Shown here piece by piece: positions 1 through 39,382 of a stretch of DNA of 39,382 bases. Both the position numbers and the translations under genes were made by a program. Each line of letters starts with the position of its first letter. Positions within the stretch are counted from its first letter, which is position 1. The stretch lies in the IMG/VR virus record IMGVR_UViG_2923296884_000001; one strand, given 5' to 3'. The notes under the pieces are model-generated. The model was not told the origin of the DNA and did not search any database. It worked only from the letters and a program-made list of their open reading frames with translations. This DNA comes from a virus. Taxonomy: Duplodnaviria > Heunggongvirae > Uroviricota > Caudoviricetes.

Positions 1-1293
<1,293 letters not shown>

Positions 1294-1315
1294 TACCCAA
1301 TTTTTCTGAATCTAA

Positions 1316-1335
1316 AAAGCGCCTGCGGGCGCTTT
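1316..1335 (+). terminator. stem-loop AAAGCGCC-tgcg-GGCGCTTT directly after serS; possibly a truncated native terminator
   Basis: Perfect 8-bp inverted repeat 23 nt after the serS stop, but followed by aagtagagg rather than a T-run. Confidence 0.4.
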
Positions 1336-1414
1336 AAGTAGAGGTTTAATCATTTGAAAATAAATGGATTTTATTTTTAAGTGTCCATATAACGTCCATC
1401 TTTGAATGCAAAAA

Positions 1415-1448
1415 GCCCACAGCTTCTATGCTGTGGGCTTTGTTTTTT
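1415..1448 (+). terminator. rho-independent terminator (plus strand)
   Basis: GCCCACAGC-ttctat-GCTGTGGGC stem-loop followed by TTTGTTTTTT. Confidence 0.6.
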
Positions 1449-1470
1449 GGTGTCCTCATGAGTGAGGGAA

Positions 1471-1504
1471 CCAAAAAGAAAACCCGCAGTTTTTACGCTG
1501 CGGG
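1471..1504 (-). terminator. rho-independent terminator (minus strand), downstream of the hok-like gene
   Basis: On the minus strand CCCGCAG-cgtaaaaa-CTGCGGG followed by TTTTCTTTTT; back-to-back with the plus-strand terminator at 1415-1448. Confidence 0.5.
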
Positions 1505-1598
1505 CTTGTTGTTCACGTCAACTGGAAATAGGGTGCCTTTTCGACCTTTACCCTGGCAACCGATTGACGGGGAAGTTGCCTTCCCCGTCGCGGTTTCC

Positions 1599-1739
1599 TT
1601 ACTGCTTACACTGTAAGAACGCCGCAAACTCCGCTCCCCAGAAGCTCATCCGTATTTCACACAGCGAACCGTGTAGCATCCAGATGATGAGGATTACCGT
1701 CACGCAGAACGTGATGGCCGTAAGCGATTTTTGCGACAT
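1599..1739 (-). CDS. Hok/Gef-family type I toxin homologue (46 aa; below the ORF-track size cut-off)
   Basis: Minus-strand ORF with SD AAAGGAG ~8 nt before the ATG at 1739; translation MSQKSLTAITFCVTVILIIWMLHGSLCEIRMSFWGAEFAAFLQCKQ has an N-terminal TM helix plus the SLCEIR and VAAF-type motifs conserved in Hok/Gef; a perfect palindrome (GACGGGGAAG-ttgc-CTTCCCCGTC, 1566-1589) follows the stop. Confidence 0.55.
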   Translation of the reverse strand: MSQKSLTAITFCVTVILIIWMLHGSLCEIRMSFWGAEFAAFLQCKQ

Positions 1740-1930
1740 AGCGCTTGCTCCTTTGTTGGAGAGGCGCTAACCTATCACTTGCTTAAGGTAGATATGTTAG
1801 GGCCTCGGTTAAACAGAAATGTTTTCCGGGGCCTTTCCACATCTGGCCTTCGGGTATTCCCTCCGACCATCAGCCGAAAGGCACCCGCGCGTAATCTATC
1901 GCTTTTTTGTTACTCCGGCAATTCTGCCTG

Positions 1931-2191
1931 TTAATTCTGAGGTAAAGGCAAACTCATCTGATTGTTTCCCCTGTGTGAAGCTGGCAGCTCATGCCACGGG
2001 ATACCTTCTGAAGAGTGAACGCCGGAGGTGTGTTTTGATGTGAATTTATGGAAAGCTTCCAGTGTTGAGAAGCATACGCCGCATTCCAGGTTGTTACACT
2101 GGTAATACTTTTGCCGCACGGTGTTTGAATCATTTTCCGGACGACTGGTGCGGATACGGGCAGATGCGCCACAAAGCGGACAACGGAACAT
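1931..2191 (-). CDS. ogr: Ogr/Delta-family zinc-finger late-gene activator
   Basis: N-terminus MFRCPLCGASARIRTSR...YYQCNNLECGVCF matches the Ogr C-x2-C...C-x4-C zinc finger; SD AAGGGAGG upstream of the ATG at 2191; sits immediately after D as in P2. Confidence 0.8.
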   Translation of the reverse strand: MFRCPLCGASARIRTSRPENDSNTVRQKYYQCNNLECGVCFSTLEAFHKFTSKHTSGVHSSEGIPWHELPASHRGNNQMSLPLPQN

Positions 2192-2233: not shown

Positions 2234-3343
2234 TCACTCTGTTTCTGCTATCCATTCCGGGATTTTTGCCTCAAGCTCAAGCTGCGTGGTAAAGCCGCTG
2301 TTATCGATGGTGTGCTCGGCTTTTGCAATAATCCAGTCCTGATTATCAATCTCGCTTTTAAATCCTGTTACCGTGCCATGCATTTCGGGGTAGAGTTCTG
2401 CACGTCCACGCGCCAGCGTGATGGAGAATGATGCGGCTCCGCGTTGTAGTTGCTGCCACTTTGCCGCCGCTGCGCGTCTTGCTGCCTGCTCGTTCTGATA
2501 AGTCTTGCGTAACACAAACACATTGCCTTCCGCGCCTTCCATATAATCACCTTCACGGCTGCTGCTTTTCTCCTTTTTGGGTTTTGGCGGTTTACGGCGT
2601 TTCACGCTGACTTTTTTCTTTTTCCCGTAATTAAGATCAAGCCAGTAAGCGCGTACCCCCGTATACGCTTCGCGGTCAGCAATGCGGAACTGATGGCGAT
2701 CGCCGCTGCTGCGTGTGATGGCAAACGATGGCAACGGCTGGCCCTGTGCGTTCACGCCACCGCCGGGCATGATGAATAACAGATTACCGCTTTTTACCGT
2801 GGTGATTGCGCCCAGCATTTCTGCCATGCGCGTAAGGAAGGACATGTCGCTTTCTTCGGTCTGGTCGGCGTGGTCGATTTCGATATCCATCAGCATTTCG
2901 CTGATTTGCGGTTTCAGACCATACCGATGAGCGATGGCGGATACCACACGCTCAACGGTCACATCATGCCAGGACACCTCACGTTTAACGTTAAATTCAT
3001 CCCGAAAATCTGCGCTTCTGGCTGAAACAGTCAGCCTGTCCGGCGGTCCTTCGTGAGCGATTTCATCAACAATGTAAGTGCCTTTTTCTGTCAGCGGTTC
3101 TCCTTTCCAGCCAATGAGAACCGTCAGGCGCGCGCCCCGTGGCGGTAGCTGCAACTGACCATCCGCATCATCCAGCGTGATGGTGAGCTGGTCCGCGTCA
3201 AATCCCCGGTTGTCGGTCAGTGACAGGCTCATCAGGCGCTCTGCCACGCCTGACAGCGTTTTACCCTCCGCGAGAATATCAAAATCCGGCATTTTTACGG
3301 GGTCTGTGCCCTGACTGAGCAATTGCATGGTGGTGTCGGTCAT
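2234..3343 (-). CDS. D: tail protein D (late control gene D)
   Basis: ORF 2234..3475 matches P2 gpD along its length; start refined to the ATG at 3343 (MTDTTMQLL...) preceded by a GGGAGGGAG SD. Confidence 0.9.
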   Translation of the reverse strand: MTDTTMQLLSQGTDPVKMPDFDILAEGKTLSGVAERLMSLSLTDNRGFDADQLTITLDDADGQLQLPPRGARLTVLIGWKGEPLTEKGTYIVDEIAHEGPPDRLTVSARSADFRDEFNVKREVSWHDVTVERVVSAIAHRYGLKPQISEMLMDIEIDHADQTEESDMSFLTRMAEMLGAITTVKSGNLLFIMPGGGVNAQGQPLPSFAITRSSGDRHQFRIADREAYTGVRAYWLDLNYGKKKKVSVKRRKPPKPKKEKSSSREGDYMEGAEGNVFVLRKTYQNEQAARRAAAAKWQQLQRGAASFSITLARGRAELYPEMHGTVTGFKSEIDNQDWIIAKAEHTIDNSGFTTQLELEAKIPEWIAETE

Positions 3344-3500
3344 CTGCTCCCTCCCTGTGCGGCATGGTCGCATGTGCGTGCGGAGGGGGTTACTGCTTTT
3401 TGTTGTCGCCGTGGCGGGAGAACGGCGCAGGGGTGAGATTACGCGCGTGGTGGGTGATGATTGTTGCTGAATCATTTAACGGATACAAGGGGCTAAAGCT
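3344..3500. promoter_or_regulatory. divergent intergenic region between D and FI; candidate late promoter(s)
   Basis: 157-bp gap between divergent D and FI starts; contains TTGTTGT-N-AGAACGG, a motif also present upstream of P at 22975-23004. Confidence 0.4.
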
Positions 3501-4685
3501 ATGAGTGAAACTCGTTTTCATGGTGCCCGTGTTACGGAAAGTACCGACCTGGTAACAGCGATTAACGATGTTGATTCCAGCGTTATCGGTATCGTGGCAA
3601 CGGCGGATGATGCGGACGCGAAGCTGTTCCCGCTGAACAAGCCCACACTGCTGACCCGCGTCAATGACGTGCTGGGAAAATGCGGGACAACGGGGACGCT
3701 TTATCGTGCGCTTAAGGCCATCGCAGACCAGGTGAGCACAAAGGTGATCGTCGTTCGCGTGGCTGAACACAAAGAAGAAAACGGAAAGACGCAGGATCAA
3801 CTGGTTATCGGTGGTTCTGAATCTGACGGCAGCTATACGGGGATGTATGCGCTGCTTGTTGCAGAGCAGGATGAAAGCATCGGATACCGTCCGCGTATTC
3901 TGGCCGCGCCGGAGCTGGACACGGAGGCGGTGACAAAATCCCTGTGCGTGATTGCGGGTAAAGTGCGCGCGTTTGTGTATGCCACATGTCATGGTTGTAA
4001 CACGATGGCTGAGGCGATTACCTACCGCCAGAAATTCAACGAACGTGAGGTGATGCTCTTATGGCCTGACTTCATCGCCTACAACCCGAAAAGTGGCAAA
4101 AACGAAACGTTCCCCGCGCCTGCTTATGCGTGCGGCCTTCGTGCGTACATTGACCATGAGCAGGGCTGGCACAAATCGCTGTCCAACGTTCCGGTTAAAA
4201 ATGTGCTGGGGATGTCCAGGCATGTGTTCTGGTCGTTACAGGCCGAAGACAGTGATGCCAACAGCCTCAACAACAAAGAAATCACGACCATTATTCGTCG
4301 TAACGGGTTCCGCTTCTGGGGCAACCGCACACCGGAAACGAACGCCTACATCTTTGAGGTGTATACCCGAACCGCACAGGTGCTGGCTGATTCAATTGCG
4401 GAAGCGCAGTTTGAAACCATCGACAGTCCACTGACACCTGCGAACGTGAAGGATGTTATCAGCGCCATCAGAGCAAAACTGGATTCGCTGGTTACTGTCG
4501 GGAAACTGATTGGTGCGGAGTGCTGGTATGACGTGGTGGATAACAGCACCACGGGTTTACGTCAGGGGCGTGTGCGTATTCGCTACAAATATACGCCTGT
4601 TCCCCCGCTGGAAGACATGGAGCTTTACCAGTCGTTTACTGATGAATTCTTTGGTCCCGCATTTGCGGTGCTGGGAGGTGCCTGA
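3501..4685 (+). CDS. FI: tail sheath protein
   Basis: 394-aa ORF with sheath-protein features and P2 gpFI similarity; followed by the tube gene with ATGA overlap. Confidence 0.93.
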   Translation: MSETRFHGARVTESTDLVTAINDVDSSVIGIVATADDADAKLFPLNKPTLLTRVNDVLGKCGTTGTLYRALKAIADQVSTKVIVVRVAEHKEENGKTQDQLVIGGSESDGSYTGMYALLVAEQDESIGYRPRILAAPELDTEAVTKSLCVIAGKVRAFVYATCHGCNTMAEAITYRQKFNEREVMLLWPDFIAYNPKSGKNETFPAPAYACGLRAYIDHEQGWHKSLSNVPVKNVLGMSRHVFWSLQAEDSDANSLNNKEITTIIRRNGFRFWGNRTPETNAYIFEVYTRTAQVLADSIAEAQFETIDSPLTPANVKDVISAIRAKLDSLVTVGKLIGAECWYDVVDNSTTGLRQGRVRIRYKYTPVPPLEDMELYQSFTDEFFGPAFAVLGGA

Positions 4686-5197
4686 TGGCTGTACCAAAAC
4701 ATCTTCGCTTTTTTACGTTGTTTGTGGATGGTGAAAACGAAGTGGGTAAAGTGACATCCGTCACGCCACCCAAACTGACGCGCAAAACCGACAGCTATCG
4801 TGGTGGTGGCATGATGGGGGCGGTAAGTATTGATCTCGGTCTGGACGACTCCGCGCTTGATGCGAGTTTTGTCATGGGGGGAGCTGTTCGTGCGCTGTTC
4901 CTTAAATATGGCGGCACGATTGACGGCACGCTGCTGCGTTTTGCGGGTGAATACTACACCGATGCAGAAAGCGATCTGTATGAAATCGAGATGCGCGGGC
5001 GTGTGACGGAAATTGATATGGGGGAGGCCAAACAGGGCGAAGCCACATCACACACTTACGCTGTCAAAAACACCTACTACAAGCTGAGCGTTAACGATCG
5101 CCCGCTGTGGGAAATCGACCTGTTGAACCACATCTACCGGAAGGACGGCAAGGACATTGTGCCTGACCGCATTCGTTCCGCGCTTGGGCTTGGCTGA
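4685..5197 (+). CDS. FII: tail tube protein
   Basis: 170-aa ORF matching P2 gpFII, in the conserved position after the sheath gene. Confidence 0.93.
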   Translation: MAVPKHLRFFTLFVDGENEVGKVTSVTPPKLTRKTDSYRGGGMMGAVSIDLGLDDSALDASFVMGGAVRALFLKYGGTIDGTLLRFAGEYYTDAESDLYEIEMRGRVTEIDMGEAKQGEATSHTYAVKNTYYKLSVNDRPLWEIDLLNHIYRKDGKDIVPDRIRSALGLG

Positions 5198-5252
5198 TAA
5201 GTAATATGCAGGCGGCGCAGTGCGTCGCCTCTGACTGAAAAGGAGACAACTG

Positions 5253-5627
5253 ATGAAAGATATCGATACTGAAACCCGGAATAACACCGTAGCGGATGAT
5301 GTGACGGCAGGTGAGGATATGGCTGTCGAACGTGGTGTAAAACTTTCCCGGCCAATTGAGCGTGGTGGCGAAAAAATCACATATGTGGAGATCACCGGGG
5401 CTATTGAGCAGGCGGGATCCCTGCGTGGTCTGTCGCTGTCTGATGTGCTGAATCTGAAAGCGGATACCATGTTCACGCTGTTGCCTCGCGTGACCTCGCC
5501 ACGACTGGATGAAGTGATGATTAAAAAAATGTCGTCACGCGATTTTATTCGGTTGTGCGCTGTGGCTGTAAATTTTATGAGCGAGCCAGACTCTGGCGCG
5601 AAGAGCGTGCAGGAGACGGCAGCGTAA
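5253..5627 (+). CDS. E: tail assembly chaperone E
   Basis: 124-aa ORF in the conserved position between tube and tape-measure genes, with an overlapping -1 frame ORF as in P2 E/E'. Confidence 0.85.
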   Translation: MKDIDTETRNNTVADDVTAGEDMAVERGVKLSRPIERGGEKITYVEITGAIEQAGSLRGLSLSDVLNLKADTMFTLLPRVTSPRLDEVMIKKMSSRDFIRLCAVAVNFMSEPDSGAKSVQETAA

Positions 5628-5791
5628 TCACCCTGGTGTGCTTTGAGCACATCGAAGATCTGGTGGCGGATATTGCCGCCATTTTTAACTGGTCGCCCGC
5701 CGAAATCTTCATGATGACGCCCGGCGAAGTGGTTAGCTGGCGTGAGCGGGCGGCACTTCGCAGCGGGAATGCAGATAATGAAGACTCTTGA
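5555..5791 (+). CDS. E': E' extension (-1 frame) of the E+E' frameshift product; true junction lies upstream, about 5525-5555
   Basis: -1 frame ORF overlapping the 3' end of E and the 5' end of T; an A7 run at 5523-5529 sits where the -1 frame opens (stop at 5522-5524 in that frame). Confidence 0.65.
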   Translation: MRCGCKFYERARLWREERAGDGSVITLVCFEHIEDLVADIAAIFNWSPAEIFMMTPGEVVSWRERAALRSGNADNEDS

Positions 5792-8585
5792 CATCCGGGT
5801 CGCTTTCAGCGCCGTTGACAGGCTGACCCGGCCTGCCGAAAACGCCCGCCGCCTGATGGGGCAGTTTGGTGACTCCATCCAGCGAACGCAGGGGGCGATC
5901 AAAAATCTCGAGCGTCAGGCGCGTTCATTTGAGCGCGCCCGTGACGCTGTCAGTAAAGCGGATGCGGGTATCGTGAAAGCACGACGCCAGCTTAACGCCC
6001 TTAATCAGTTACAACGCACGGGTACAGTGCTCAGCGAAAAACAACAAAAGCTGATGCAGCAGTTAAGCACCCGGCTTGAACGCCTGAATGAATCGCGCAC
6101 ACGGGAAATTCAGAAAATGCGGGAACTTGGCGGAGAGCTGAAACGCCACGGCATTTCCCTGACAGGCAGCGATAACACCATCCAGCAGGCCATCAGACGC
6201 ACCGAACAGTACAACAACCAGCTTGAACGCGAACGGCAGGCGCTTGCGCGTGTAACGCGGGCGCGTGAGCGGTATTCGCGCGCGCAGGAAACCGCGGGAA
6301 AACTGAAAACAGGTGGTGCGCTGGCAATTGGTGCTGCAGCGGCTGGCGGCTATGCTGCCGGGCGTTTTTTGCAGCCTGCGATCGGGTTCGGCAAAGAGAT
6401 GTCCCGCGTTCAGGCACTGACGCGAATCGACAAAAACAGCCCGCAGTTTAAGGCGCTGCGTGAGCAGGCGTTAAAACTTGGTTCTGAAACACAGTTTACT
6501 GCGAGTGATGCCGCCAGTGGGCAGAGCTTTCTGGCAATGGCTGGTTTTACTCCGCAGGCCATTCAGGCCGCATTGCCCGGTGTTCTTAATATGGCGCTGG
6601 CAGGTGGCGTCGAACTCGGCGAGACGGCTGATATAGGCTCCAATATCCTCACACAGTTCAACCTGACAGCCGATCAAATGGACCGGGTTGGCGATACGCT
6701 GACAGCAGCATTCACCCGGACCAATACTGATTTACGCGCGCTGGGCGAAACCATGAAGTATACCGGTCCGGTTGCCGCAAAACTTGGTATCAGTCTTGAA
6801 GAAGCGGCGGCCATGGCCGGGATGCTTGCCAATAATGGTCTTCGCGGAAGCGATGCTGGTACGGCCATGCGCGCAAGTCTGTCCCGCCTTGCATCACCGC
6901 CAAAAGCTGCGGCTGATGCACTGAAAGAGCTGGGGGTGTCAGTTGCTGACGCCAGAGGCAAAATGCGCCCGATGGAGGATGTGCTGCTTGATCTCTATAA
7001 GGCGACACAAAAATACGGACAGGTGGACCAGGTTTCCTTCTTCAAGGACATCGCCGGAGAAGAGGCGTTCGTTGGTTTACAGACGCTTGTTGCGGCGGCT
7101 GGTTCAGGAGAGCTGCAAAAACTGACCAGAGAATTGCAGGGGGCAAGGGGAGAGGCCGATCGCGTTGCAAAAGTAATGGCCGATAATCTTGATGGGGACC
7201 TGAAAAATCTCGACAGCGCATGGGAAGGTCTTCGTATTCGCATCAGTGATCTGGTTGACGGTCCGCTGCGTTCTGTCACGCAGTGGCTCACGCGGGTGCT
7301 TGAAAAAATCACCTCGCTGGCGCAGGCCCATCCGGTACTGACGCGCCAGCTACTGATAGCAGGCGGTGCGTTGCTGGCAATGACTGCAACGATTGGCTCG
7401 TTGTCGCTGGTTATTGGGGTGCTTTACGGAAAGCTGGCCACCCTGCGTCTTGGTTTTGACATTCTTACCCGGTCAATGAATGTCGTCCGGGTGTTGCCTG
7501 CGCTGTGGGGAATGCTGACGGGTTCTGTTTCTTTGCTGGGAGGCGCTATCGGGGCGCTGTTCAGTCCGGTTGGATTGATTGCTGCTGCGTTTGTGGCTGC
7601 GGCGGTTCTCATCTGGAAATACTGGGAACCCATTAAGGCGTTTTATGCCGGGGTGTTCAACGGGATTATGGAAAGGCTGACCCCGTTGCGCGAAACCTTT
7701 GAACGGTTTGGTCCTGTTTTTGACGCAATCGGAAGCGGGATCAGCCAGGTGTTTAACTGGTTTAAATCGCTGCTGTCACCGATGGAGTCCAGCAAGGAAA
7801 CGCTGGATAAATGTACCAGTGCTGGCGAGATATTCGGTAACGTTCTTGGTGGCGCGTTACAGCTTGTTCTGACGCCTGCAAAAATGTTGCTGGATACGCT
7901 GGCGTGGATACTTGAAAAACTCGGTGTTCTTCCGGATGAAGCGGAAAGGGCGAGAAAGAAAATCGAAGACGCACAGCGTGCGGCCATTCTTCAGGACAAG
8001 GTTACCTTGCTTCAGGGGGACCTGGCGAAAATCAATCCGCCGAAGCCTGTGGAAAATGGCAATGGCACCGGAGGTGATAACCCCAAAGACAATAAACCGC
8101 TCACAGACAGCAATACCGGGACGCTGCGCAGACTCAGCAAAATTGCTGATAACACAGGTAAGCTGGTTGAGGAGACGAAAAAACGCATTGGCCCCGGCGA
8201 TATTGTCTTTAAAAACCTGCCCCGAGCACTTGCTGTTCGTGGGGAGTGGCAGGAGCGGAAGATTGCGCAGGTCAGTAAGCCTGCCCCCGCAATTAATATC
8301 ACACCCGTGGTCCCGGCTCCGCTGCCTCCGGCGCTGGTCCCTGTTGTTGCGGCCAGCTCCCGCCCGGTGGCGGAGGCCATACGATCTCCAGTGGCATCAG
8401 TTCCTGTAACTTCCCGTAACCGGGAGCCTGTTGCCTCCGGATTTGGTGGTGAAATTCATGTTCATCTGCATAACGTTGTTACGCAGAATCCCCGCGAACT
8501 GGCGAAACTGGTCGGTGAAATGGTCAGGGCAGAAATGGAACGGCGTGCCCGTGCCGGGCGTGGCAGTTTTTACGATAAAGATTGA
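5769..8585 (+). CDS. T: tail tape-measure protein
   Basis: About 940-aa ORF with coiled-coil N-terminal half, Gly/Ala-rich hydrophobic segments and a Pro-rich C-terminus, in the P2 gpT position; start (5742, 5769 or 5778) overlaps E'. Confidence 0.9.
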   Translation: MQIMKTLDIRVAFSAVDRLTRPAENARRLMGQFGDSIQRTQGAIKNLERQARSFERARDAVSKADAGIVKARRQLNALNQLQRTGTVLSEKQQKLMQQLSTRLERLNESRTREIQKMRELGGELKRHGISLTGSDNTIQQAIRRTEQYNNQLERERQALARVTRARERYSRAQETAGKLKTGGALAIGAAAAGGYAAGRFLQPAIGFGKEMSRVQALTRIDKNSPQFKALREQALKLGSETQFTASDAASGQSFLAMAGFTPQAIQAALPGVLNMALAGGVELGETADIGSNILTQFNLTADQMDRVGDTLTAAFTRTNTDLRALGETMKYTGPVAAKLGISLEEAAAMAGMLANNGLRGSDAGTAMRASLSRLASPPKAAADALKELGVSVADARGKMRPMEDVLLDLYKATQKYGQVDQVSFFKDIAGEEAFVGLQTLVAAAGSGELQKLTRELQGARGEADRVAKVMADNLDGDLKNLDSAWEGLRIRISDLVDGPLRSVTQWLTRVLEKITSLAQAHPVLTRQLLIAGGALLAMTATIGSLSLVIGVLYGKLATLRLGFDILTRSMNVVRVLPALWGMLTGSVSLLGGAIGALFSPVGLIAAAFVAAAVLIWKYWEPIKAFYAGVFNGIMERLTPLRETFERFGPVFDAIGSGISQVFNWFKSLLSPMESSKETLDKCTSAGEIFGNVLGGALQLVLTPAKMLLDTLAWILEKLGVLPDEAERARKKIEDAQRAAILQDKVTLLQGDLAKINPPKPVENGNGTGGDNPKDNKPLTDSNTGTLRRLSKIADNTGKLVEETKKRIGPGDIVFKNLPRALAVRGEWQERKIAQVSKPAPAINITPVVPAPLPPALVPVVAASSRPVAEAIRSPVASVPVTSRNREPVASGFGGEIHVHLHNVVTQNPRELAKLVGEMVRAEMERRARAGRGSFYDKD

Positions 8586-8591
8586 GGAGTC

Positions 8592-9086
8592 ATGGCCATG
8601 ATGATGATCTATGGCATGTTTGTTTTTGAGCTGCGCACATTGCCGCATCAGCAGTTACAGCAAAACAAAAGCTGGCGGCATGTGAAAAATGAACGCGTTA
8701 ATCGTTCAGCAAGCTGGCAGTATATCGGCGCAGGTGATGATCGCATCGTGCTTTCCGGCGTGCTTTATCCTGAAATTACAGGTGGCGAAGTGTCGCTTTC
8801 GTTGCTGACCACGCAGGCATATACAGGACGCCCCTGGCCTCTGATTGATGGTGTCGGGCAGATTTACGGCATGTATGTACTGACTGAAACGAATACGACC
8901 CGTTCCGAGTTTGATCGCTACGGTAAGGCGAAAAAGATAGAATTTTCACTGACTCTTGAACGCTGTGATGAGGATTTGCGGGAGCGCCTGCAATCCTCAT
9001 CGTTCAGTGATATGCTGTCCGGCTTCAAAGATAAGGTCACATCATCCCTTAACAGCGCGGCCAGCTCCGTTAAAGGGCTGTTTTGA
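8592..9086 (+). CDS. U: tail protein U
   Basis: 164-aa ORF immediately after T with similarity to P2 gpU (MFVFELRTLPHQ... vs P2 MFVFMRQTLPHQ...). Confidence 0.9.
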   Translation: MAMMMIYGMFVFELRTLPHQQLQQNKSWRHVKNERVNRSASWQYIGAGDDRIVLSGVLYPEITGGEVSLSLLTTQAYTGRPWPLIDGVGQIYGMYVLTETNTTRSEFDRYGKAKKIEFSLTLERCDEDLRERLQSSSFSDMLSGFKDKVTSSLNSAASSVKGLF

Positions 9087-9093: not shown

Positions 9094-9123
9094 AAAACCG
9101 CTAATGGTCAGATTAGCGGTTTT
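9094..9123. terminator. palindromic hairpin between convergent U and invertase genes (bidirectional terminator candidate)
   Basis: AAAACCGCTAAT-ggtcag-ATTAGCGGTTTT perfect 12-bp inverted repeat, A-run on one side and T-run on the other; overlaps the invertase stop codon. Confidence 0.5.
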
Positions 9124-9712
9124 CATTTTCCTGAGTCTGCCTGGTTGTTTCTTCAGCCTGTATATCGCCTACAGGGTGATAACGATAAATCGTCGATATG
9201 CCGATGTCGTAAATGATCGCCAGTTGTTTCCTGTCATGACCGTTTTTAATCAGCCTCGCTATTTGCTCGTGTTGTTCTTTTGTCAACTTCGGGCGACGTC
9301 CGCCAATGCGTCCTTGTGCGCGTGCTGCTGCCAGCCCGGCCAGTGTACGCTCTACAATTAATTCACGTTCCATTTCGGCTAAAGCCCCCATGACGTGAAA
9401 AAAGAAACGCCCCATGGGTGTTGATGTGTCAATGCTGTCCGTCAGACTACGGAAATTAACACCTTTTTCCCGCAATTCCTCAATAAGCGTGATCAGGTGT
9501 TTCATACTTCTGCCCAGTCTGTCCAGCTTCCAGACAACCAGCGTATCTCCTTCTGATAGCGTTCTGAGCAGTTTTTTCAATCCCGGTCTGGTTGATTTCG
9601 TTCCGCTGATTTTATCTTCAAAAATCAGTTCACATCCTGCGCAGTTCAGTGCATTGCGTTGTAAATCCGTGTTCTGGTCGTTTGTTGACACACGAATATA
9701 GCCAATTTGCAT
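9113..9712 (-). CDS. serine-recombinase DNA invertase (Hin/Gin/Cin/Pin family)
   Basis: Translation from the ATG at 9712, MQIGYIRVSTNDQNTDLQRNAL..., carries the catalytic serine (GYIRVSTNDQ) and a C-terminal HTH; lies right next to an inverted-repeat-flanked tail-fibre segment. Confidence 0.93.
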   Translation of the reverse strand: MQIGYIRVSTNDQNTDLQRNALNCAGCELIFEDKISGTKSTRPGLKKLLRTLSEGDTLVVWKLDRLGRSMKHLITLIEELREKGVNFRSLTDSIDTSTPMGRFFFHVMGALAEMERELIVERTLAGLAAARAQGRIGGRRPKLTKEQHEQIARLIKNGHDRKQLAIIYDIGISTIYRYHPVGDIQAEETTRQTQENENR

Positions 9713-9726
9713 AAAAAACATCCTCT

Positions 9727-10245
9727 TTGTTTCGTGAAAAATACAGAGTTGGTATAGGTAGGGATAAAAACGAAAACGTTGGTTTAGGAGAAGGCTCGGC
9801 GCTACCCGTTGGTGTGCCTGTTCCGTGGCCCACTGCCACACCGCCAGCAGGCTGGTTACAGTGCAACGGAGCTACGTTCACCAAAGAACAATATCCTGTT
9901 CTGGCCAGAGTCTACCCGACCCTCCGTCTTCCCGATTTGCGCGGTGAGTTTATCCGTGGATGGGACGGTGGTCGCAAGGTTGATACCGGGCGTACGGTAC
10001 TTTCATTTCAGGAAGGGACTATCGTATCCGGTTTTGATGATAATAATACCGGAGATATCAGTTCGCTCGGCTCTACACAATACGGATTTGGTGACGCTTT
10101 AACCTCTAATCAACTGGGGGTCATAAATGGCAAAAAGTGGATATTTGATGCATCCTCTAAAGGTGCACAAAGATATGACTGGTGGGCTTATGTATCAGCT
10201 CGCCCCCGCAATATCGCATTTAACTATATCGTGAGGGCGGCGTGA
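9727..10245 (+). CDS. alternative tail-fibre C-terminal cassette (Hv'), promoterless in the current orientation
   Basis: Opens inside the left inverted repeat with no plausible start of its own (ORF-track start is a TTG); ends ...RPRNIAFNYIVRAA, matching the conserved P2-type fibre C-terminus. Confidence 0.8.
   Translation: MFREKYRVGIGRDKNENVGLGEGSALPVGVPVPWPTATPPAGWLQCNGATFTKEQYPVLARVYPTLRLPDLRGEFIRGWDGGRKVDTGRTVLSFQEGTIVSGFDDNNTGDISSLGSTQYGFGDALTSNQLGVINGKKWIFDASSKGAQRYDWWAYVSARPRNIAFNYIVRAA
9765..9790. other. gix/hix-like crossover site (left)
   Basis: Reverse complement TTCTCCTAAACCAACGTTTTCGTTTT shares its first 17 nt with the right-hand site; resembles the 26-bp gix architecture with AAACC half-sites. 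Confidence 0.5.
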
Positions 10246-10251
10246 TACCGT

Positions 10252-10866
10252 TCAACTGGCAAGTGCCAGTGGTGCTTCCGGCCAGATGATTTCAGGTGCC
10301 GTGCTGATATCCAGTGCGTTCAGCTCGTCGATATAATCCAGCACGGCGTTCAGTTTTGCCGTTTCTTCTGGTGTCAGACTGCGACCAGCACGCAGTTTGA
10401 GGTTGATAAGATCGACGGACGCCATCGCCTGTTTCACCCGTTGCTGGCGTTGCTGTCTGGCAACCTCCAGTTCTGCGGTTCGCTGCCGTTCAGTATCGGT
10501 TACCCACGCCTCACCGTTCCAGGTATCCCATGGCGTGGCTGGCTGTTTTGTGGTGGTGTCCGCCGGGTAATCACCCGGTTGGGTAATCAGAACGGGGTTA
10601 CCGTTCTCCGTGCTGTATACCGTCTCGCCGCGGTGATCAGGCACATGCTCCCACCCGTTCAGCGTGGCAGTCCGGCAAACCACGTAACCCGAAATTGCCT
10701 CCGGCGGTGCATCGGCGCACGAATGTGCCGGAGTACCCACCCCAAGGGCGAGATACTCCACAGAGGATGAGGTGTATTCCCGGGTTTCCTCGTCATAGTG
10801 ATATACAGTGATATCGCCCGCTACAGTGGCGATACCGTTTTCATCCAGAACTGCAGTGTTACTCAT
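10252..10866 (-). CDS. tail fibre assembly chaperone (Tfa / P2 gpG-like)
   Basis: 204-aa ORF translationally coupled (TAATG) to the upstream fibre C-terminal ORF; variable N-terminal half and conserved C-terminal half typical of Tfa proteins. Confidence 0.85.
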   Translation of the reverse strand: MSNTAVLDENGIATVAGDITVYHYDEETREYTSSSVEYLALGVGTPAHSCADAPPEAISGYVVCRTATLNGWEHVPDHRGETVYSTENGNPVLITQPGDYPADTTTKQPATPWDTWNGEAWVTDTERQRTAELEVARQQRQQRVKQAMASVDLINLKLRAGRSLTPEETAKLNAVLDYIDELNALDISTAPEIIWPEAPLALAS

Positions 10867-11108
10867 TAAACTGCCCTCACAATGTAATTAAGTGCAATGC
10901 TACGGGGTCTGACAGTGATACCCTTCGCATACCCGCTTCTGATAGAGGTCAGAATAGTAGCCTGCATACCATTGTCTGACATTGCTATGACAGGATCGCT
11001 GAATGTTGTCCCGTCCGGCATTTTAAAGCTGCCCTCACGAAGGTCTGTAATGGAATCTTCATTGTTGAATCCCATGCCGACTATCCCGAGGTTCCCGTAG
11101 TGTCCTGG
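10866..11108 (-). pseudogene. distal part of the currently fused fibre C-terminus, in a different frame from H (frameshifted end)
   Basis: This frame is open from 11108 and ends ...RPRSIALNYIVRAV, the conserved fibre terminus, while the H frame stops at 11081; the two frames overlap at 11081-11108. Confidence 0.5.
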
Positions 11109-12688
11109 TTATAATAATCCAGCATTGCTGTTCTTAACAGCGTTGCCCCTTGTGCGGACAGCAACTTACGTCCTGTATCAACTTTGCGCCCGTCGTCCCA
11201 TCCACGGATAAACTCACCGCGTAAATCGGGAAGACGGAGGGTCGGGTAGGCTCTGGCCAGAACAGGATATTGTTCTTTTGTAAAGGCGCGCCCGTCGCAC
11301 TTTAACCAGCCTGCTGGCGGTGTGGCGGTGGGCCACGGAACAGGCACACCAACGGGTAGCGCCGAGCCTTCTCCTAAACCAAGGTAATTGAGGACATCTT
11401 TTATACTGCCCTTAGCGATAATAGCGCGACCAATAGCTGTAAGGGTTGCCAGCGCTGCGCGGTCTGCTCCGGTAAAATAAGGCAACCGATCTGCTGCAGT
11501 GGCAAGTCCTGCCAGAGCAGTGAGCGTGGCATCTGCCGGTTGTTTTCCGTTTGCCAGATCGTATGCAGCCTTGACCGCTTTCGGTGTGGCGGCCAGTATT
11601 TCAGACGTGCTGTTGGTGGCGCTACTGAGTTGAACAAGGCCTTTTCGTGCCGTAGTCGCATCCTGAGCGGTATATTTCCCGTTAGCCAGGTCATATGCAG
11701 CCTTAACCGCTTTCGGTGTTGCGGCCAGCGTTTCAGAGGTGCTGTTGGTGGCGCTACTGAGTTGAACAAGGCCTTTTCGTGCCGTAGTCGCATCCTGAGC
11801 GGTATATTTCCCGTTAGCCAGGTCATATGCAGCCTTAACCGCTTTCGGTGTTGCGGCCAGCGTTTCAGAGGTGCTGTTGGTGGCGCTACTGAGTTGAACA
11901 AGGCCTTTTCGTGCCGTAGTCGCATCCTGAGCGGTATATTTCCCGTTAGCCAGGTCATATGCAGCCTTAACCGCTTTCGGTGTGGCGGCCAGCGTTTCAG
12001 AGGTGCTGTTGGTGGCGCTACTGAGTTGAACAAGGCCTTTTCGTGCCGTAGTCGCATCCTGAGCGGTATATTTCCCGTTAGCCAGGTCATATGCATCCTT
12101 AACCGCTTTCGGTGTTGCGGCCAGCGTTTCAGAGGTGCTGTTGGTGGCGCTGCTAAGTTGAACAAAGCCTTTTGCGGTCAGCGAGGCGTCCGGGTGACGT
12201 CGTGACTGCTCGTGCTCTGATATTTTATCATCCACATATTTGCGGGTTGCCAGAACCACAGACGGGTCGATTTTCAGCGTGATGGCTTCGGTGTTCGTGA
12301 CAACCAGAATCATGCGGATAGTCTGGGTGCGTCCACTGCCTTCCTGCAACTGCGGTTTGTACGTTTCCGGGCAGTTTGCCACCGCAATGAGTACACCTTT
12401 ATCATCATAAAGACCAATCTCACGGATCCAGAATCCTCCCTCGCTTTCAGGGATGATTTGCTCCGCAATAATCTGGCTCTGATTGTTAGGGTCAACACTC
12501 AGAAGATTCAGCGGTGCAATGCGTTTCTGGTTAATCAGTTTTGTTTGTGCAGGGTCTGGTGTTGGTAACACACCATTTGCATCACCAACGGCCATTCGCG
12601 TCAGATTCAGCTTACTGCCGAGCATCGTCGCGTTAGCCAGTCGTGCCGCGCCCTGATTAGTCAGAATGGCGTAGTATTTCACTGTCAT
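11081..12688 (-). CDS. H: tail fibre protein H (constant part plus currently fused variable end)
   Basis: 535-aa ORF with a P2 gpH-like N-terminus, five tandem 44-aa repeats, and a C-terminal region that enters the right inverted repeat. Confidence 0.9.
   Translation of the reverse strand: MTVKYYAILTNQGAARLANATMLGSKLNLTRMAVGDANGVLPTPDPAQTKLINQKRIAPLNLLSVDPNNQSQIIAEQIIPESEGGFWIREIGLYDDKGVLIAVANCPETYKPQLQEGSGRTQTIRMILVVTNTEAITLKIDPSVVLATRKYVDDKISEHEQSRRHPDASLTAKGFVQLSSATNSTSETLAATPKAVKDAYDLANGKYTAQDATTARKGLVQLSSATNSTSETLAATPKAVKAAYDLANGKYTAQDATTARKGLVQLSSATNSTSETLAATPKAVKAAYDLANGKYTAQDATTARKGLVQLSSATNSTSETLAATPKAVKAAYDLANGKYTAQDATTARKGLVQLSSATNSTSEILAATPKAVKAAYDLANGKQPADATLTALAGLATAADRLPYFTGADRAALATLTAIGRAIIAKGSIKDVLNYLGLGEGSALPVGVPVPWPTATPPAGWLKCDGRAFTKEQYPVLARAYPTLRLPDLRGEFIRGWDDGRKVDTGRKLLSAQGATLLRTAMLDYYNQDTTGTSG
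11369..11394. other. gix/hix-like crossover site (right)
   Basis: TTCTCCTAAACCAAGGTAATTGAGGA: imperfect dyad of 12-bp half-sites around a central AA, at the outer edge of the right inverted repeat. Confidence 0.5.
11510..12170 (-). repeat. five tandem copies of a 132-bp (44-aa) coding repeat inside H
   Basis: Near-identical 132-bp units at about 11640, 11772, 11904 and 12036 plus a more diverged flanking copy; encode LVQLSSATNSTSETLAATPKAVKAAYDLANGKYTAQDATTARKG. Confidence 0.85.
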
Positions 12689-13293
12689 GCGTTTACTCTC
12701 AGATTATCAATTAAATGAATGGCCGGGGCAGGGAAATAATCCCCTTCGACAATAATGGACTCCGGGGTGTAGGGATAAACCGTCAGGGCGTCGCCGTAAT
12801 AGCATCCCGTACCAACGAAAATCTTTCCGTTCACACTCAGGCTGATCGCCAGCCCCGTCAGATGGCGACTTACTGGTTTTGCATCCGCAATAAGGCGCTC
12901 AAGTTCCTGATACATTTCATCGGTGATGCCCTGATCAAGTACTCCGACAACAATGCGAAATGTCCCAGGCTCCTCATTGAGTTGCCACCACTCCTTTACT
13001 TCAATCAGGTAGCCGAGAGGCTCCACGGCTCTTCGCAGTGCGCTGATGGTCCCTTTGTGTCGGTGTATCAGCCATGCATCACGAATTACCTGTCGCTTTG
13101 TCTCTTCCGGCCAGTTGCGATCCCAGCGGTCAACGGAAAACGCCCAGGCGAGATAAGGCAGCAGATGCACCGGGCAGGTGTCCGGCGACCACAACGTGTT
13201 GAGGTCTACCGGAATGTCTGTAATGCGTGTTCCGACGGCTTCGGCACAACGCATGAAATTGCTGGCTGATGGTGGTAACAACGAATTACTCAT
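12685..13293 (-). CDS. I: baseplate protein I
   Basis: P2 gpI-like ORF; start taken as the ATG at 13293 (MSNSLL..., SD AAGGTGGA); overlaps the J stop and the H start as in P2. Confidence 0.85.
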   Translation of the reverse strand: MSNSLLPPSASNFMRCAEAVGTRITDIPVDLNTLWSPDTCPVHLLPYLAWAFSVDRWDRNWPEETKRQVIRDAWLIHRHKGTISALRRAVEPLGYLIEVKEWWQLNEEPGTFRIVVGVLDQGITDEMYQELERLIADAKPVSRHLTGLAISLSVNGKIFVGTGCYYGDALTVYPYTPESIIVEGDYFPAPAIHLIDNLRVNA

Positions 13294-14182: not shown

Positions 14183-14185
14183 GAT

Positions 14186-16206: not shown

Positions 16207-16229
16207 CTGTTTTGCTCTCCTGCTCTTCC

Positions 16230-19350: not shown

Positions 19351-19352
19351 TG

Positions 19353-20056: not shown

Positions 20057-20148
20057 TCCTGAAAAAATCGGGCGGTGGGTGTGCGGTGTAAACGGTCACG
20101 GAGTCAAACCGGAACACCGCGCACGCCGCCCGCTGACGGGGTCAGTCG

Positions 20149-20949: not shown

Positions 20950-20994
20950 TTTTTCTCTCCGTTACAGGCGGGCATGATGCCCGCCGTGAGTTGA

Positions 20995-22047: not shown

Positions 22048-22070
22048 AAAAAATTTGCTCCTTTGTCTTA

Positions 22071-26956: not shown

Positions 26957-26984
26957 TTATAGGTTGTGTATATTTGCTGGGTCC

Positions 26985-27248: not shown

Positions 27249-27249
27249 A

Positions 27250-37353: not shown

Positions 37354-37875
37354 TTAGTTGCCTCTGTTGTTTCTGAGTTGGTCCAGTTTTGAGCTTCTGC
37401 CTGTATAAACTCGCTTACCGTTAATGGTCTGGCAGTCTTCTTTATTAGCTGGAGAGAACTTCCTTTTCTGGCGGTCATACGTCCAGTAACTTTTCCAGTT
37501 GTGCCATTCTGGGGGCTCGTGCTCTGGTAGCTCATCAGCCAACTTGTCCCACTCTTTGGCGTTAAACCACCATACTCCGTCTGAGTTTTCATCTTCCGGG
37601 TTTGTGCGCGTCTTGTGTCCCGGCATTTGACCGCGATGAATGGCTACGCGCAGTGCAGATTTTGTTAGCCCAATATATGCCGCGCCTTTTTCCAGAGAGC
37701 AAAGCCCGGCGATCGGACCATCCAGCCGCAAAGTCGCTCCTTTTTTGTAGGAACGCTTTTTCTTGTTTTCTTCGTGCTCGTCGTCGTTGGCGGCATCAAT
37801 GGATCCGCTGAGTGCGTTACTTTCCTGAAGTGGTTGGTGGTCAGATAACTCTTTATCGGCAATGAAGTCCCGCAT
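37354..37875 (-). CDS. Cox/Apl-like HTH regulator-excisionase with N- and C-terminal extensions (173 aa)
   Basis: Central segment AAYIGLTKSALRVAIHRGQMP resembles P2 Cox (AKLIGKSTGAVRRMIDKGKLP); first gene of the leftward early operon, divergent from C; ATG at 37875 with SD AAGAGGA. Confidence 0.65.
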   Translation of the reverse strand: MRDFIADKELSDHQPLQESNALSGSIDAANDDEHEENKKKRSYKKGATLRLDGPIAGLCSLEKGAAYIGLTKSALRVAIHRGQMPGHKTRTNPEDENSDGVWWFNAKEWDKLADELPEHEPPEWHNWKSYWTYDRQKRKFSPANKEDCQTINGKRVYTGRSSKLDQLRNNRGN

Positions 37876-37917: not shown

Positions 37918-37937
37918 GGTTTGTTTTGGTTTGTTTT
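37918..37937. promoter_or_regulatory. tandem direct repeat GGTTTGTTTT x2 in the C/cox switch region; candidate operator
   Basis: Two adjacent 10-bp direct repeats in the 103-bp region between divergent cox-like and C starts. Confidence 0.4.
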
Positions 37938-37978: not shown

Positions 37979-38320
37979 ATGGTGAACATGTCAAGAGATT
38001 ACGCCAAAAAACTAAAGGCGATCAGAAATGCGGAAAAACTTACACAATCTCAGTTTTCGCAAGTAACGGGGGTTTCTGTAGGGACTATAGGAAATTATGA
38101 GTCTGGATATAAACCTGCGCGAATTGAGGTTGTAGAAAAAGTAATCCAAGTCGAGCGATTCGAAAAATACACTATGTGGATACTTCACGACAAAACATTT
38201 CCCGCTGCCGGGCAGGTTGCACCGGCTCTCTCTCTTGATGGCTCTATTCAGTCGGAGGGCGATCAGGTTTCAATCGGCATTACCCAAAAATCACCCCGAT
38301 CAGGCCGCAATGTTGGCTGA
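37979..38320 (+). CDS. C: immunity repressor C (HTH, XRE-like)
   Basis: About 113 aa from the ATG at 37979 (SD AAGAGGA); HTH segment LTQSQFSQVTGVSVGTIGNYESG; lies immediately before int on the same strand. Confidence 0.75.
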   Translation: MVNMSRDYAKKLKAIRNAEKLTQSQFSQVTGVSVGTIGNYESGYKPARIEVVEKVIQVERFEKYTMWILHDKTFPAAGQVAPALSLDGSIQSEGDQVSIGITQKSPRSGRNVG

Positions 38321-38389: not shown

Positions 38390-39382
38390 ATGTCGATTAA
38401 GCAACTCAAAGACGGACGTTATCAGGTCGATGTCAGACCGCAGGGGGCGGAAGGAAAGCGGATTCGAAAAATCTTTGCCCTGAAATCAAAGGCTCAGGAG
38501 TTTGAGAAGTATGTGTTACAGAACTTTCATGACAAGCCATGGCAGGCTAAGCCAGCTGATCAGCGGCGATTATCAGAGCTGCTTGATGCGTGGTGGATGC
38601 TTGATGGTCGTAATCAGGCTTACGGGGATAGCTACAGGGTTAGGCTAGGGAAGGTTGTTCGTGAAATGGGAGATCCTCGCGCCAGTCAGATGACGCGAAA
38701 ATTTATGCTTGAATATCGGTCAGAGAAATTACAGGCCGGATTAATGCCGTCCAGTATTAATCGTGACTTATGCGTACTGTCTACCATGTTCACGGTGCTG
38801 ATTGAAGCTGAGGTCTTTCACAACGCGAACCCTGTACGCGGTATACGAAAACTGAAAGTTCAGAACACAGAGATGGCCTTTCTTTCTGATGATGAGATTG
38901 AACGGCTTCTTGAGCGACTGGAGGGTGATGCGCGTCGTGTTGCCATTCTGTGTCTTTCTACTGGTGCCCGATGGAGTGAAGCATCGGAACTACGTGGAGA
39001 GCATATCGTTGGCAACCGGGTGACGTTCTTTAACACCAAAAACGGAAAATCCCGTTCGGTTCCTGTGGCGGATTCGGTCGTGCCTCTGATTAAAACCCGT
39101 CGAACGGGGTTATTGTATCAGGTTGATTATCTGAAGTTCCGGGAGATTCTTCAGGAGGTGAAACCGGATTTGCCGAAGGGGCAGGCTACGCATGTCATGC
39201 GTCATACATTTGCCACACACTTTATGATGAATGGCGGAAATATTGTTACGTTGCAACGAATCCTGGGGCACGCAACGATTCAGCAAACAATGACGTACGC
39301 TCATTTTTCGCCGGACTTCTTACAGGACGCGATCAACTTTAATCCGCTGGCTGAAAGTGTCCATAAACTGTCCATCGATTAG
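38390..39382 (+). CDS. int: tyrosine integrase (P2 Int family)
   Basis: Start refined to the ATG at 38390 (SD GGAGG); C-terminal catalytic region with ...HVMRHTFATHF...LGHATIQQTMTYAH; stop TAG at 39380-39382 is the last triplet of the window. Confidence 0.92.
   Translation: MSIKQLKDGRYQVDVRPQGAEGKRIRKIFALKSKAQEFEKYVLQNFHDKPWQAKPADQRRLSELLDAWWMLDGRNQAYGDSYRVRLGKVVREMGDPRASQMTRKFMLEYRSEKLQAGLMPSSINRDLCVLSTMFTVLIEAEVFHNANPVRGIRKLKVQNTEMAFLSDDEIERLLERLEGDARRVAILCLSTGARWSEASELRGEHIVGNRVTFFNTKNGKSRSVPVADSVVPLIKTRRTGLLYQVDYLKFREILQEVKPDLPKGQATHVMRHTFATHFMMNGGNIVTLQRILGHATIQQTMTYAHFSPDFLQDAINFNPLAESVHKLSID

What the first reader, a model, noticed from the sequence alone, without database searches (positions are those of the whole stretch)
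1294..1930. Prophage attachment junction is not resolved; serS terminator looks altered
The first hairpin after serS (1316-1335) lacks a T-run, and a second canonical terminator follows at 1415-1448, suggesting the native 3' region of serS was remodelled by insertion. The att core could lie at about 1300-1340 (making the hok-like locus phage cargo) or just after ogr near 1931. The matching direct repeat would lie beyond int, outside this window.
Basis: inference. Interest (0 to 1): 0.35.

Follow-up and report, generated by a model that had tools for sequence, protein, structure and literature searches.

The report
P2-like prophage junction in serS terminator
The odd-looking end of the serS gene is the left junction of a P2-like prophage that integrated into the serS terminator hairpin; this is an ordinary, already catalogued integration site, now mapped to the base.

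Summary
The hairpin at 1316-1335 (AAAGCGCCTGCGGGCGCTTT) is the serS intrinsic terminator stem-loop, and it is also the 20-bp attachment core of a P2-like (P88/Xuanwuvirus-type) prophage. Host homology stops at 1335 in the prophage-free genomes listed. 5075 of 5426 complete E. coli genomes carry the uninterrupted site, where the hairpin is followed by T7.

In near-identical lysogens (U15A, UTI89) the same 20 bp recur 84-103 nt after the int stop, just beyond the window, followed by the displaced T-run and dmsA. So the core is at 1316-1335, not next to ogr at 1931.

Bases 1336-1460 form the integrase-specific phage arm. It holds an IHF-like site, a tandem GTCCAT-N5-GTCCAT Int arm site (its only twin lies inside the int 3' end) and a strong bidirectional terminator at 1412-1448. 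Bases 1476-1890 are a complete hok/sok-type cassette carried as phage cargo, also found in the induced phage P88 and in prophages at other sites.

A divergent variant prophage narrows the crossover to CCTGCGGGCG (1322-1331). The layout matches the annotated P2 attP element for element. The prophage ends published for PhiECO5 in UTI89 (Nilsson et al. 2011) fall inside this core. This is an ordinary, known kind of feature.

The parts
1..1293 (+). serS (serine-tRNA ligase), host gene, intact
   Evidence: ORF. The same protein accession (WP_000886683.1) is annotated in K-12 and in lysogens.
1294..1315 (+). Host spacer between the serS stop and its terminator hairpin
   Evidence: Identical to the K-12 empty site.
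1316..1335 (.). attL core AAAGCGCCTGCGGGCGCTTT, which is the serS terminator hairpin; 20-bp direct repeat with attR
   Evidence: The only long direct repeat between the two prophage ends. Host homology ends at 1335. Homology to the attP half begins at the first base of the core.
1322..1331 (.). CCTGCGGGCG: the largest segment that can contain the strand-exchange (overlap) region
   Evidence: In the variant prophage of STEC17-183, attL and attR differ at core positions 4, 6 and 17 and share only this 10-mer. This is an inference from natural variation.
1336..1460 (.). Integrase-specific phage arm (P arm side of attP); absent from empty sites and from P2-like phages with other integrases
1347..1359 (-). 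Candidate IHF site TTTCAAATGATTA (one mismatch to WATCAANNNNTTR)
   Evidence: It is the only match in the arm. Inside the annotated IHF site of P2 the only match is TTTCAATTTATTG, with the same mismatch, the same orientation and the same position between P arm and core.
1383..1399 (.). Arm-type Int binding site, tandem GTCCAT-N5-GTCCAT (P arm)
   Evidence: The pattern occurs only twice in 39.4 kb, against 0.18 expected. Its reverse complement TGGAC(A) matches the P2-type consensus tgTGGaCa (PMC3448106) and the annotated P2 P arm. It is conserved in the 85%-identity variant.
1412..1448 (.). Phage-borne bidirectional intrinsic terminator. It sits where P2 has the terminator that follows ogr, and is the likely substitute terminator for serS read-through in the lysogen.
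   Evidence: It is absent from empty sites.
1476..1890 (-). hok/sok-type type I toxin-antitoxin cassette (predicted hok mRNA), phage cargo
   Evidence: The whole-transcript fold pairs the 5' end (about 1886-1872) with about 1546-1531, z -7.5. The same module lies next to ogr in P88 and in prophages at other sites.
1480..1507 (-). Intrinsic terminator of the hok transcript
1599..1739 (-). hok-family toxin gene (46 aa)
   Evidence: Pfam HOK_GEF, 30.1 bits against a cut-off of 22. RefSeq annotates it as Hok/Gef family protein.
1729..1886 (-). hok mRNA leader / Sok target region
   Evidence: Rfam RF01794 (sok), 47.9 bits, E 2e-9, below the gathering score of 59.
1931..2191 (-). ogr (late-gene activator)
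   Evidence: Pfam Ogr_Delta, 52.4 bits.
37354..37875 (-). cox-family gene (putative excision directionality factor and switch repressor)
   Evidence: Pfam Phage_Cox, 31.2 bits against a cut-off of 27.5.
37920..37934 (+). Candidate Cox boxes (TTTGT-N5-TTTGT) in the C/cox switch region. The same motif lies between int and the attR core, just outside the window.
   Evidence: 3 matches in 42.5 kb against 0.15 expected; two are at these positions. This is an inference.
37979..38320 (+). C-type immunity repressor
   Evidence: Pfam HTH_3. Immunity class IX of PhiECO5 in PMC3448106.
38390..39382 (+). P2-type tyrosine integrase
   Evidence: 52% identity to P2 Int over the full length, E 1e-133. Pfam Int_N and Phage_integrase.
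39359..39375 (.). Arm-type Int binding site GTCCAT-N5-GTCCAT (P' arm) inside the int 3' end
   Evidence: The annotated P2 P' arm lies in the homologous codons: ESVHKLS here, ESVHTVS in P2.

Best explanation
Bases 1294-1930 are the left junction (attL) of an integrated P2-like (P88/Xuanwuvirus-type) prophage. Its tyrosine integrase recombines a 20-bp core, AAAGCGCCTGCGGGCGCTTT, with the identical sequence that forms the stem-loop of the serS intrinsic terminator.

Shown by sequence comparison:
- Integration left the hairpin after serS but moved its T7 tract about 38 kb away to attR.
- There a phage-derived copy of the hairpin plus the host T-run rebuilds the complete terminator between int and dmsA.
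- To the right of the core come the integrase-specific P arm (IHF-like site at 1347-1359, tandem Int arm site at 1383-1399), a phage bidirectional terminator (1412-1448), a hok/sok-type addiction cassette carried as cargo (1476-1890), and ogr.

Inferred, not shown:
- The two stem arms act as the inverted core-type Int sites.
- Strand exchange occurs within CCTGCGGGCG (1322-1331), around the loop.
- In the lysogen, serS transcripts read through the weakened hairpin (only 3 U follow it) and stop at the phage terminator about 113 nt further on.
For: Host boundary:
- Every listed prophage-free genome matches window 1200-1335 and no further (5424 of 5426 genomes have a match). 285 genomes carry the full 1200-2000.
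- 5075 of 5426 genomes have the uninterrupted site. 335 have the two attP halves apart, and none has them joined.

Junction sequences:
- attB: ...ctaaAAAGCGCCTGCGGGCGCTTTttttgtctccc
- attL: ...ctaaAAAGCGCCTGCGGGCGCTTTaagtagagg
- attR: ...acgttAAAGCGCCTGCGGGCGCTTTttttgtctccc
- This is the only long repeat between the two ends.

P2-type attachment apparatus:
- The tandem GTCCAT-N5-GTCCAT occurs only at 1383-1399 and 39359-39375.
- It matches the P2-type arm consensus tgTGGaCa (PMC3448106).
- The order matches the annotated P2 attP: ogr, terminator, P arm, IHF, core, Cox sites, then the P' arm inside the int 3' end.
- Int is 52% identical to P2 Int, and a cox-family gene is present.

Other support:
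- The variant prophage in STEC17-183 sits at the same site and narrows the crossover to 10 bp.
- The hok-ogr module is found in phage P88 and in prophages at other sites.
- The published PhiECO5 ends in UTI89 (911187-948481) fall at base 10 of each core copy, which lie at 911178-911197 and 948472-948491.
Against: - No intact attP of this phage type was found in any collection. attP is therefore reconstructed, not observed, and excision competence is not demonstrated.
- Binding of Int, IHF and Cox to the proposed sites rests on homology and position only.
- The effect on serS termination is predicted from sequence rules, not measured.
- attR was read from near-identical genomes (U15A is 99.8-99.9% identical to the window), not from the window's own source.
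Confidence: 0.95

Rival explanations
1. The attachment core lies just after ogr (about 1900-1945). On this view the hok-like locus and both downstream terminators are host DNA or an older resident island, not part of the prophage.
For: ogr is the last recognisable P2 late-region gene, and in P2 itself attP follows ogr directly. A 9-nt match, CGCTTTTTT (1900-1908), exists near attR.
Against: Bases 1336-1930 are absent from 5075 empty sites. Bases 1461-2250 are contiguous at about 95% identity in prophages next to tRNA-Leu or flk and in the induced phage P88. The 9-nt match is at chance level and is merely the T-run. The Int arm site lies at 1383-1399, left of hok.
Confidence: 0.01
2. The prophage ends at about 1461, where homology to other P2-like prophages starts. 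On this view 1336-1460, including the 1412-1448 terminator, is a separate small insertion or a remnant of an earlier element at the serS terminator.
For: Homology with P2-like prophages that carry other integrases begins at 1461, 1473 or 1525.
Against: The segment carries the tandem GTCCAT arm site whose only twin in the window lies inside this int gene. It also carries an IHF-like site placed as in P2. It co-occurs with the int-side half in the same 335 genomes, median 2 places per genome. The 85%-identity int variant has a co-diverged version of the same segment. A break in homology at an integrase-specific att arm is what modular exchange of int-att modules predicts.
Confidence: 0.03
3. The loss of the T-run after the serS hairpin is a local mutation or deletion unrelated to integration.
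For: None beyond the bare observation.
Against: The T7 tract and all downstream host sequence are found intact immediately after the second core copy at attR.
Confidence: 0.005

Closest known systems
Bacteriophage P2 attP/Int/IHF/Cox site-specific recombination system
   Same: Int is 52% identical over its full length. The order of elements is the same: ogr side, terminator, tandem arm repeats (TGGAC motif), IHF site with the same TTTCAA-N4-TTR variant, core, Cox region, then a second tandem arm repeat inside the last codons of int. A C repressor gene and a divergent cox-family gene lie beside int.
   Different: The core and host target differ: a 20-bp perfect hairpin that is the serS terminator, against the 27-bp P2 core used at other loci. 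A hok/sok cassette sits between ogr and the arm. The late-gene backbone is P88/Xuanwuvirus-like, with the FI-U tail block inverted relative to P2.
Prophage PhiECO5 of E. coli UTI89 (Nilsson, Cardoso-Palacios and Haggard-Ljungquist 2011, PMC3448106)
   Same: Same integration site and same integrase protein accession (WP_000023738.1). The int region is 97.3% identical in DNA. The published prophage ends, 911187 and 948481, fall at base 10 of the two core copies. It is classed there as a P2-type integrase and as C immunity class IX.
   Different: It is a different strain with a few per cent of sequence divergence. The paper's figure showing the core is not held, so I could not check whether it mentions the overlap with the serS terminator.
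Escherichia phage P88 (NC_026014, Xuanwuvirus), induced from E. coli K88 (PMC5285337, abstract)
   Same: Same gene order, including the invertase, the inverted FI-U block, gpD (99% identical) and a hok-family gene between gpD/ogr and attP.
   Different: Its integrase is only 50% identical, and homology stops at window 1473. It therefore has a different att arm and presumably a different integration site.
hok/sok type I toxin-antitoxin loci (plasmid R1 and chromosomal hok loci)
   Same: A Hok-family toxin (Pfam), a leader matching Rfam sok at E 2e-9, predicted long-range 5'-3' pairing of the mRNA, and its own terminator.
   Different: The Rfam score is below the gathering threshold. The upstream 31-codon ORF (1870-1775) ends 36 nt before hok rather than overlapping it as mok does in R1 (the R1 comparison is from my own knowledge). 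No Sok promoter was detected by the simple scan.

Membership tests
P2-type heterobivalent tyrosine-integrase attachment site | Integrase homologous to P2 Int, with an N-terminal arm-binding domain and a catalytic domain | tested here: met
   52% identity over 330 aa, E 1e-133. Pfam Int_N at 97 bits and Phage_integrase at 68 bits. The N-terminus GRYQVDVR shares Y, D and R with P2 GRYEVDIR. These are probably the P2-type discriminator residues named in PMC3448106, but their numbering was not mapped.
P2-type heterobivalent tyrosine-integrase attachment site | Identical core sequence at both prophage ends and in the unoccupied host site | tested here: met
   The 20-bp core lies at window 1316-1335, at U15A L003 39466-39485 and in K-12 attB. 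UTI89 has it at both ends.
P2-type heterobivalent tyrosine-integrase attachment site | At least two direct arm-type repeats (consensus tgTGGaCa) on each side of the core | tested here: met
   GTCCAT-N5-GTCCAT occurs only at 1383-1399 and 39359-39375, against 0.18 expected. The consensus is from PMC3448106.
P2-type heterobivalent tyrosine-integrase attachment site | IHF site between the ogr-side arm and the core | tested here: met
   TTTCAAATGATTA at 1347-1359 (- strand). It has the same one-mismatch form, orientation and relative position as TTTCAATTTATTG inside the annotated P2 IHF site. This is sequence-level evidence only.
P2-type heterobivalent tyrosine-integrase attachment site | Cox directionality factor with repeated Cox boxes between the core and the int-side arm | tested here: inconclusive
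   A cox-family gene is present (Pfam Phage_Cox). TTTGT-N5-TTTGT is found both between int and the attR core and in the C/cox switch region, but the recognition sequence of this Cox is unknown.
P2-type heterobivalent tyrosine-integrase attachment site | Demonstrated integrative and excisive recombination (attP x attB gives attL + attR, and the reverse) | not testable with these tools
   No intact attP was found in the phage records, IMG/VR, metagenomes, GTDB genomes or 5426 E. coli genomes.
Rho-independent (intrinsic) terminator | GC-rich hairpin immediately followed by a U-tract | tested here: not met
   This row concerns the attL hairpin at 1316-1335. The stem is intact but is followed by UUUAAGUAG, and the scan does not call it. 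The same hairpin meets the criterion in attB and attR, where T7 follows it. The hairpin at 1412-1448 meets it on the + strand by the scan; its reverse strand has an equally stable stem followed by TTTTT, which I read directly and the scan did not call.
hok/sok type I toxin-antitoxin | Hok/Gef-family small membrane toxin | tested here: met
   Pfam HOK_GEF, 30.1 bits against a cut-off of 22.
hok/sok type I toxin-antitoxin | Structured mRNA leader with a Sok antisense target and 5'-3' fold-back pairing | tested here: inconclusive
   Rfam sok scores 47.9 bits against a gathering score of 59, E 2e-9. The minimum-free-energy fold pairs the 5' and 3' ends, z -7.5. No Sok promoter was identified.

The most novel reading that the evidence does not exclude
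The terminator swap at the att site might be regulatory.

In the circular phage, int is followed by the U-tract-less hairpin and then the strong 1412-1448 terminator across attP. In the prophage, int is followed by the rebuilt full serS terminator. The int mRNA would then have different 3' ends, and possibly different stability, in the two states, loosely like lambda sib retroregulation.

In parallel, serS would acquire a 3' UTR about 113 nt longer in roughly 6% of E. coli strains. Nothing here tests either idea.
Probability: 0.08. Interest if true: 0.35.

Novelty: already known. Interest (0 to 1): 0.1.

Why it matters
- It fixes the prophage boundary for annotation: the prophage runs from the core at 1316-1335 to the core copy 84-103 nt past the int stop.
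- It assigns the hok/sok cassette and the 1412-1448 terminator to the phage.
- It explains why serS appears to have a defective terminator in about 6% of complete E. coli genomes.
- It is a clean example of an integrase that uses a terminator hairpin as its palindromic core and supplies replacement parts, so that both flanking transcription units stay terminated.
- It opens no new question.

Tried and rejected
- **Search for a real attP.** A reconstructed attP was searched against 50,697 phage records. The only hits covering the int-side arm plus core were three so-called phage records. The two I opened are prophage excerpts that include host dmsA. Exact attP junction patterns gave nothing in IMG/VR, JGI metagenomes or GTDB genomes. 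No E. coli genome holds the two halves joined. The attL junction pattern is also absent from the GTDB species representatives.
- **Literature.** Karlsson et al. 2006 (PMC1482927) and the supplement of PMC3448106 are not held. Full-text searches for serS together with dmsA or P2-like and prophage found only one unrelated paper.
- **The FI-U tail block.** I first suspected that its inversion relative to P2 was a rearrangement. I rejected this because the induced phage P88 has the same order.
- **Weak Rfam hits at 1350-1515** (Qrr, VrrA, Thr leader, miRNA families). All are far below their gathering scores and merely reflect terminator hairpins.
- **PADLOC scan** of nine cargo or hypothetical proteins gave no hits.

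Full report
**What is in the window**

The window is E. coli serS (1-1293, +) followed by a P2-like prophage. A 46-aa Hok-family gene lies at 1599-1739 (-), ogr at 1931-2191 (-) and gpD at 2234-3475 (-). Tail, lysis, head and replication genes follow, then cox (37354-37875, -), the C repressor (37979-38320, +) and int (38390-39382, +). The window stops exactly at the int stop codon.

Bases 1316-1335 are AAAGCGCC-TGCG-GGCGCTTT, followed by AAGTAGAGG. Bases 1412-1441 form a 12-pair stem followed by GTTTTTTGG.

**Where host DNA ends**

A megablast of 1200-2000 against 5426 complete E. coli genomes found a match in 5424.
- In every prophage-free genome listed, the match covers query 1-136 only, which is window 1200-1335.
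- 285 genomes carry the full 1200-2000.
- P2-like prophages at other loci match only from window 1461/1462 or 1528 onward.

The K-12 empty site reads ...ctgaatctaaAAAGCGCCTGCGGGCGCTTTttttgtctccc..., with dmsA 239 bp after serS. A 200-bp probe spanning that site is uninterrupted in 5075 of 5426 genomes.

**The other end of the prophage**

Strain U15A carries the same prophage. It is 99.8-99.9% identical across the window and differs only in the orientation of the invertible tail-fibre segment. In U15A, 84 nt after the int stop, the sequence reads ...gcaagaaacgttAAAGCGCCTGCGGGCGCTTTttttgtctccc..., and K-12 downstream DNA and dmsA follow.

The 20-mer is the only long direct repeat between the attL region (1294-1960) and the attR region. 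The next longest, 11 nt, is the Int arm site. Nothing longer than 9 nt from 1900-1945 recurs there.

A reconstructed attP hits 335 genomes as two separate halves, with a median of 2 places per genome. The ogr-side half starts exactly at the first base of the core. No genome has the halves joined.

The att core is therefore 1316-1335, which is the serS terminator hairpin itself. The T7 tract now follows the second core copy at attR.

**Attachment-site anatomy**

- *Arm sites.* The pattern GTCCAT-N5-GTCCAT occurs exactly twice in the 39.4-kb window, against 0.18 expected. One copy is at 1383-1399, 47 bp right of the core. The other is at 39359-39375, inside the last codons of int and 90 bp left of the attR core. 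Its complement, TGGAC(A), matches the P2-type arm consensus tgTGGaCa reported by Nilsson et al. 2011 (PMC3448106).
- *Order of elements.* The GenBank record of P2 annotates ogr, terminator, Int P arm, IHF, core, Cox sites, then the Int P' arm inside the int 3' end. The P2 arm sequences are GTGGTCAatgTGTGGAC and TGTGGACActgTGTGGACA. The order, orientation and spacings here are the same.
- *P' arm.* It lies in homologous codons: ESVHKLS here, ESVHTVS in P2.
- *IHF site.* The only IHF-consensus match in the arm is TTTCAAATGATTA (1347-1359, - strand). It has the same one-mismatch form, orientation and position as TTTCAATTTATTG within the annotated P2 IHF site.
- *Integrase.* Int is 52% identical to P2 Int over its full length.
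- *Candidate Cox boxes.* TTTGT-N5-TTTGT occurs both between int and the attR core and in the C/cox switch region, with 3 matches against 0.15 expected. This identification is an inference.

**Narrowing the crossover**

About 60 genomes carry an int variant roughly 85% identical in DNA. The one I examined, in STEC17-183, sits at the same site.
- Its attL core reads AAAGCGCCTGCGGGCGGTTT.
- Its attR core reads AAATCTCCTGCGGGCGCTTT.

In attL the left flank is host and the right flank is phage, and in attR the reverse. The partitioned mismatches at core positions 4, 6 and 17 therefore confine strand exchange to CCTGCGGGCG (window 1322-1331), centred on the hairpin loop. The arm repeats are conserved in this variant.

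**The rest of 1294-1930**

- *1336-1460* is the integrase-specific arm. It is absent from empty sites and from P2-like phages with other integrases. Its hairpin at 1412-1448 is a strong terminator on the + strand by the scan. Both strands fold equally well (dG -23 and -22 kcal/mol, z -5.4 and -6.0), and the - strand stem is followed by TTTTT on inspection. It occupies the place of the P2 terminator that follows ogr.
- *1476-1890 (-)* is a hok/sok-type cassette.
  - Pfam HOK_GEF matches the toxin.
  - Rfam sok scores 47.9 bits at 1729-1886, below its gathering score.
  - It has its own terminator at 1507-1480.
  - The predicted fold pairs the transcript's 5' end with a 3' segment, z -7.5.
- *The hok-ogr module* is shared at about 95% identity with prophages next to tRNA-Leu (strain N58) and flk (strain AH21E028), and with phage P88. 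P88 was obtained by induction (PMC5285337 abstract). The module is therefore phage cargo, whatever the integration site.

**Consequences (inferred)**

In the lysogen the serS hairpin keeps its stem but is followed by only three U, and the scan does not call it a terminator. The phage terminator 113 nt downstream is the likely stop for serS read-through. At attR the phage-derived hairpin plus the host T7 recreates the native terminator, which insulates dmsA from int transcription.

**Novelty**

Nilsson et al. 2011 list the prophage PhiECO5 in UTI89 at 911187-948481. In UTI89 the two core copies lie at 911178-911197 and 948472-948491. Both published ends therefore fall at base 10 of the core. 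UTI89 Int has the same protein accession as here. The junction is thus already catalogued, and its architecture is canonical P2.

Noticed in passing
window 3501-9086 (+) against 2234-3475 (-) and 10916 onward (-): The tail block FI-FII-E-E'-T-U is inverted relative to gpD/ogr and to the P2 gene order, and lies next to a DNA invertase gene (9113-9712). The induced phage P88 has the same order, so this is a lineage (Xuanwuvirus) feature and not damage. It does leave open how gpD and ogr are transcribed without the upstream F operon.
   Followed up: partly
window 9779-11385: The invertible tail-fibre segment is in the opposite orientation to the otherwise 99.8-99.9% identical prophage of strain U15A. 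This suggests the Cin/Gin-like invertase is active.
   Followed up: partly
L002 (E. coli 4/0, NZ_CP023849.1) about 9700-29000: In strain 4/0 the prophage is split by a chromosomal inversion. The tail-fibre/invertase region abuts a second recombinase gene and aroA, while int lies next to an inverted dmsABC. The inversion endpoints appear to be in invertase-associated segments.
   Followed up: no
window 33305-33502 (-): Rfam C4 antisense RNA (78.5 bits) and isrK (72.4 bits) lie in tandem, above their gathering scores. They are beside a gene annotated as an ash-family pseudogene, which looks like a P1/P7-style antisense-controlled module inside a P2-like prophage.
   Followed up: no
window 16230-18107 (-): A 625-aa DUF6645 gene is inserted between the lysis genes and the tail-completion genes. 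P88 has no counterpart there in its annotation. PADLOC gave no hit.
   Followed up: partly
window 28399-29674 (-): ParM-like and partition/stability genes lie downstream of the replication endonuclease gene. This is plasmid-type segregation machinery in an integrating P2-like phage, and it is also present in P88.
   Followed up: no
window 2234-3475 (-): RefSeq (PGAP) annotates gpD as a truncated 266-aa protein plus a small pseudogene in U15A, 4/0 and UTI89. The ORF is nevertheless intact and 99% identical to P88 gpD from Met45 onward. This is an annotation artefact.
   Followed up: yes
window 11526-12173: The tail-fibre gene contains internal tandem repeats with a period of about 130 bp, 93-96% identical (self-matches).
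   Followed up: no
L014 10397-11008 (STEC17-183 variant prophage): The 85%-identity variant prophage at the same serS site carries two tandem hok-family genes instead of one. Its attL keeps a 5-T run after the hairpin.
   Followed up: no
window 26907-26921: A third copy of the TTTGT-N5-TTTGT motif (the candidate Cox box) lies in the poorly annotated region downstream of the portal gene.
   Followed up: no
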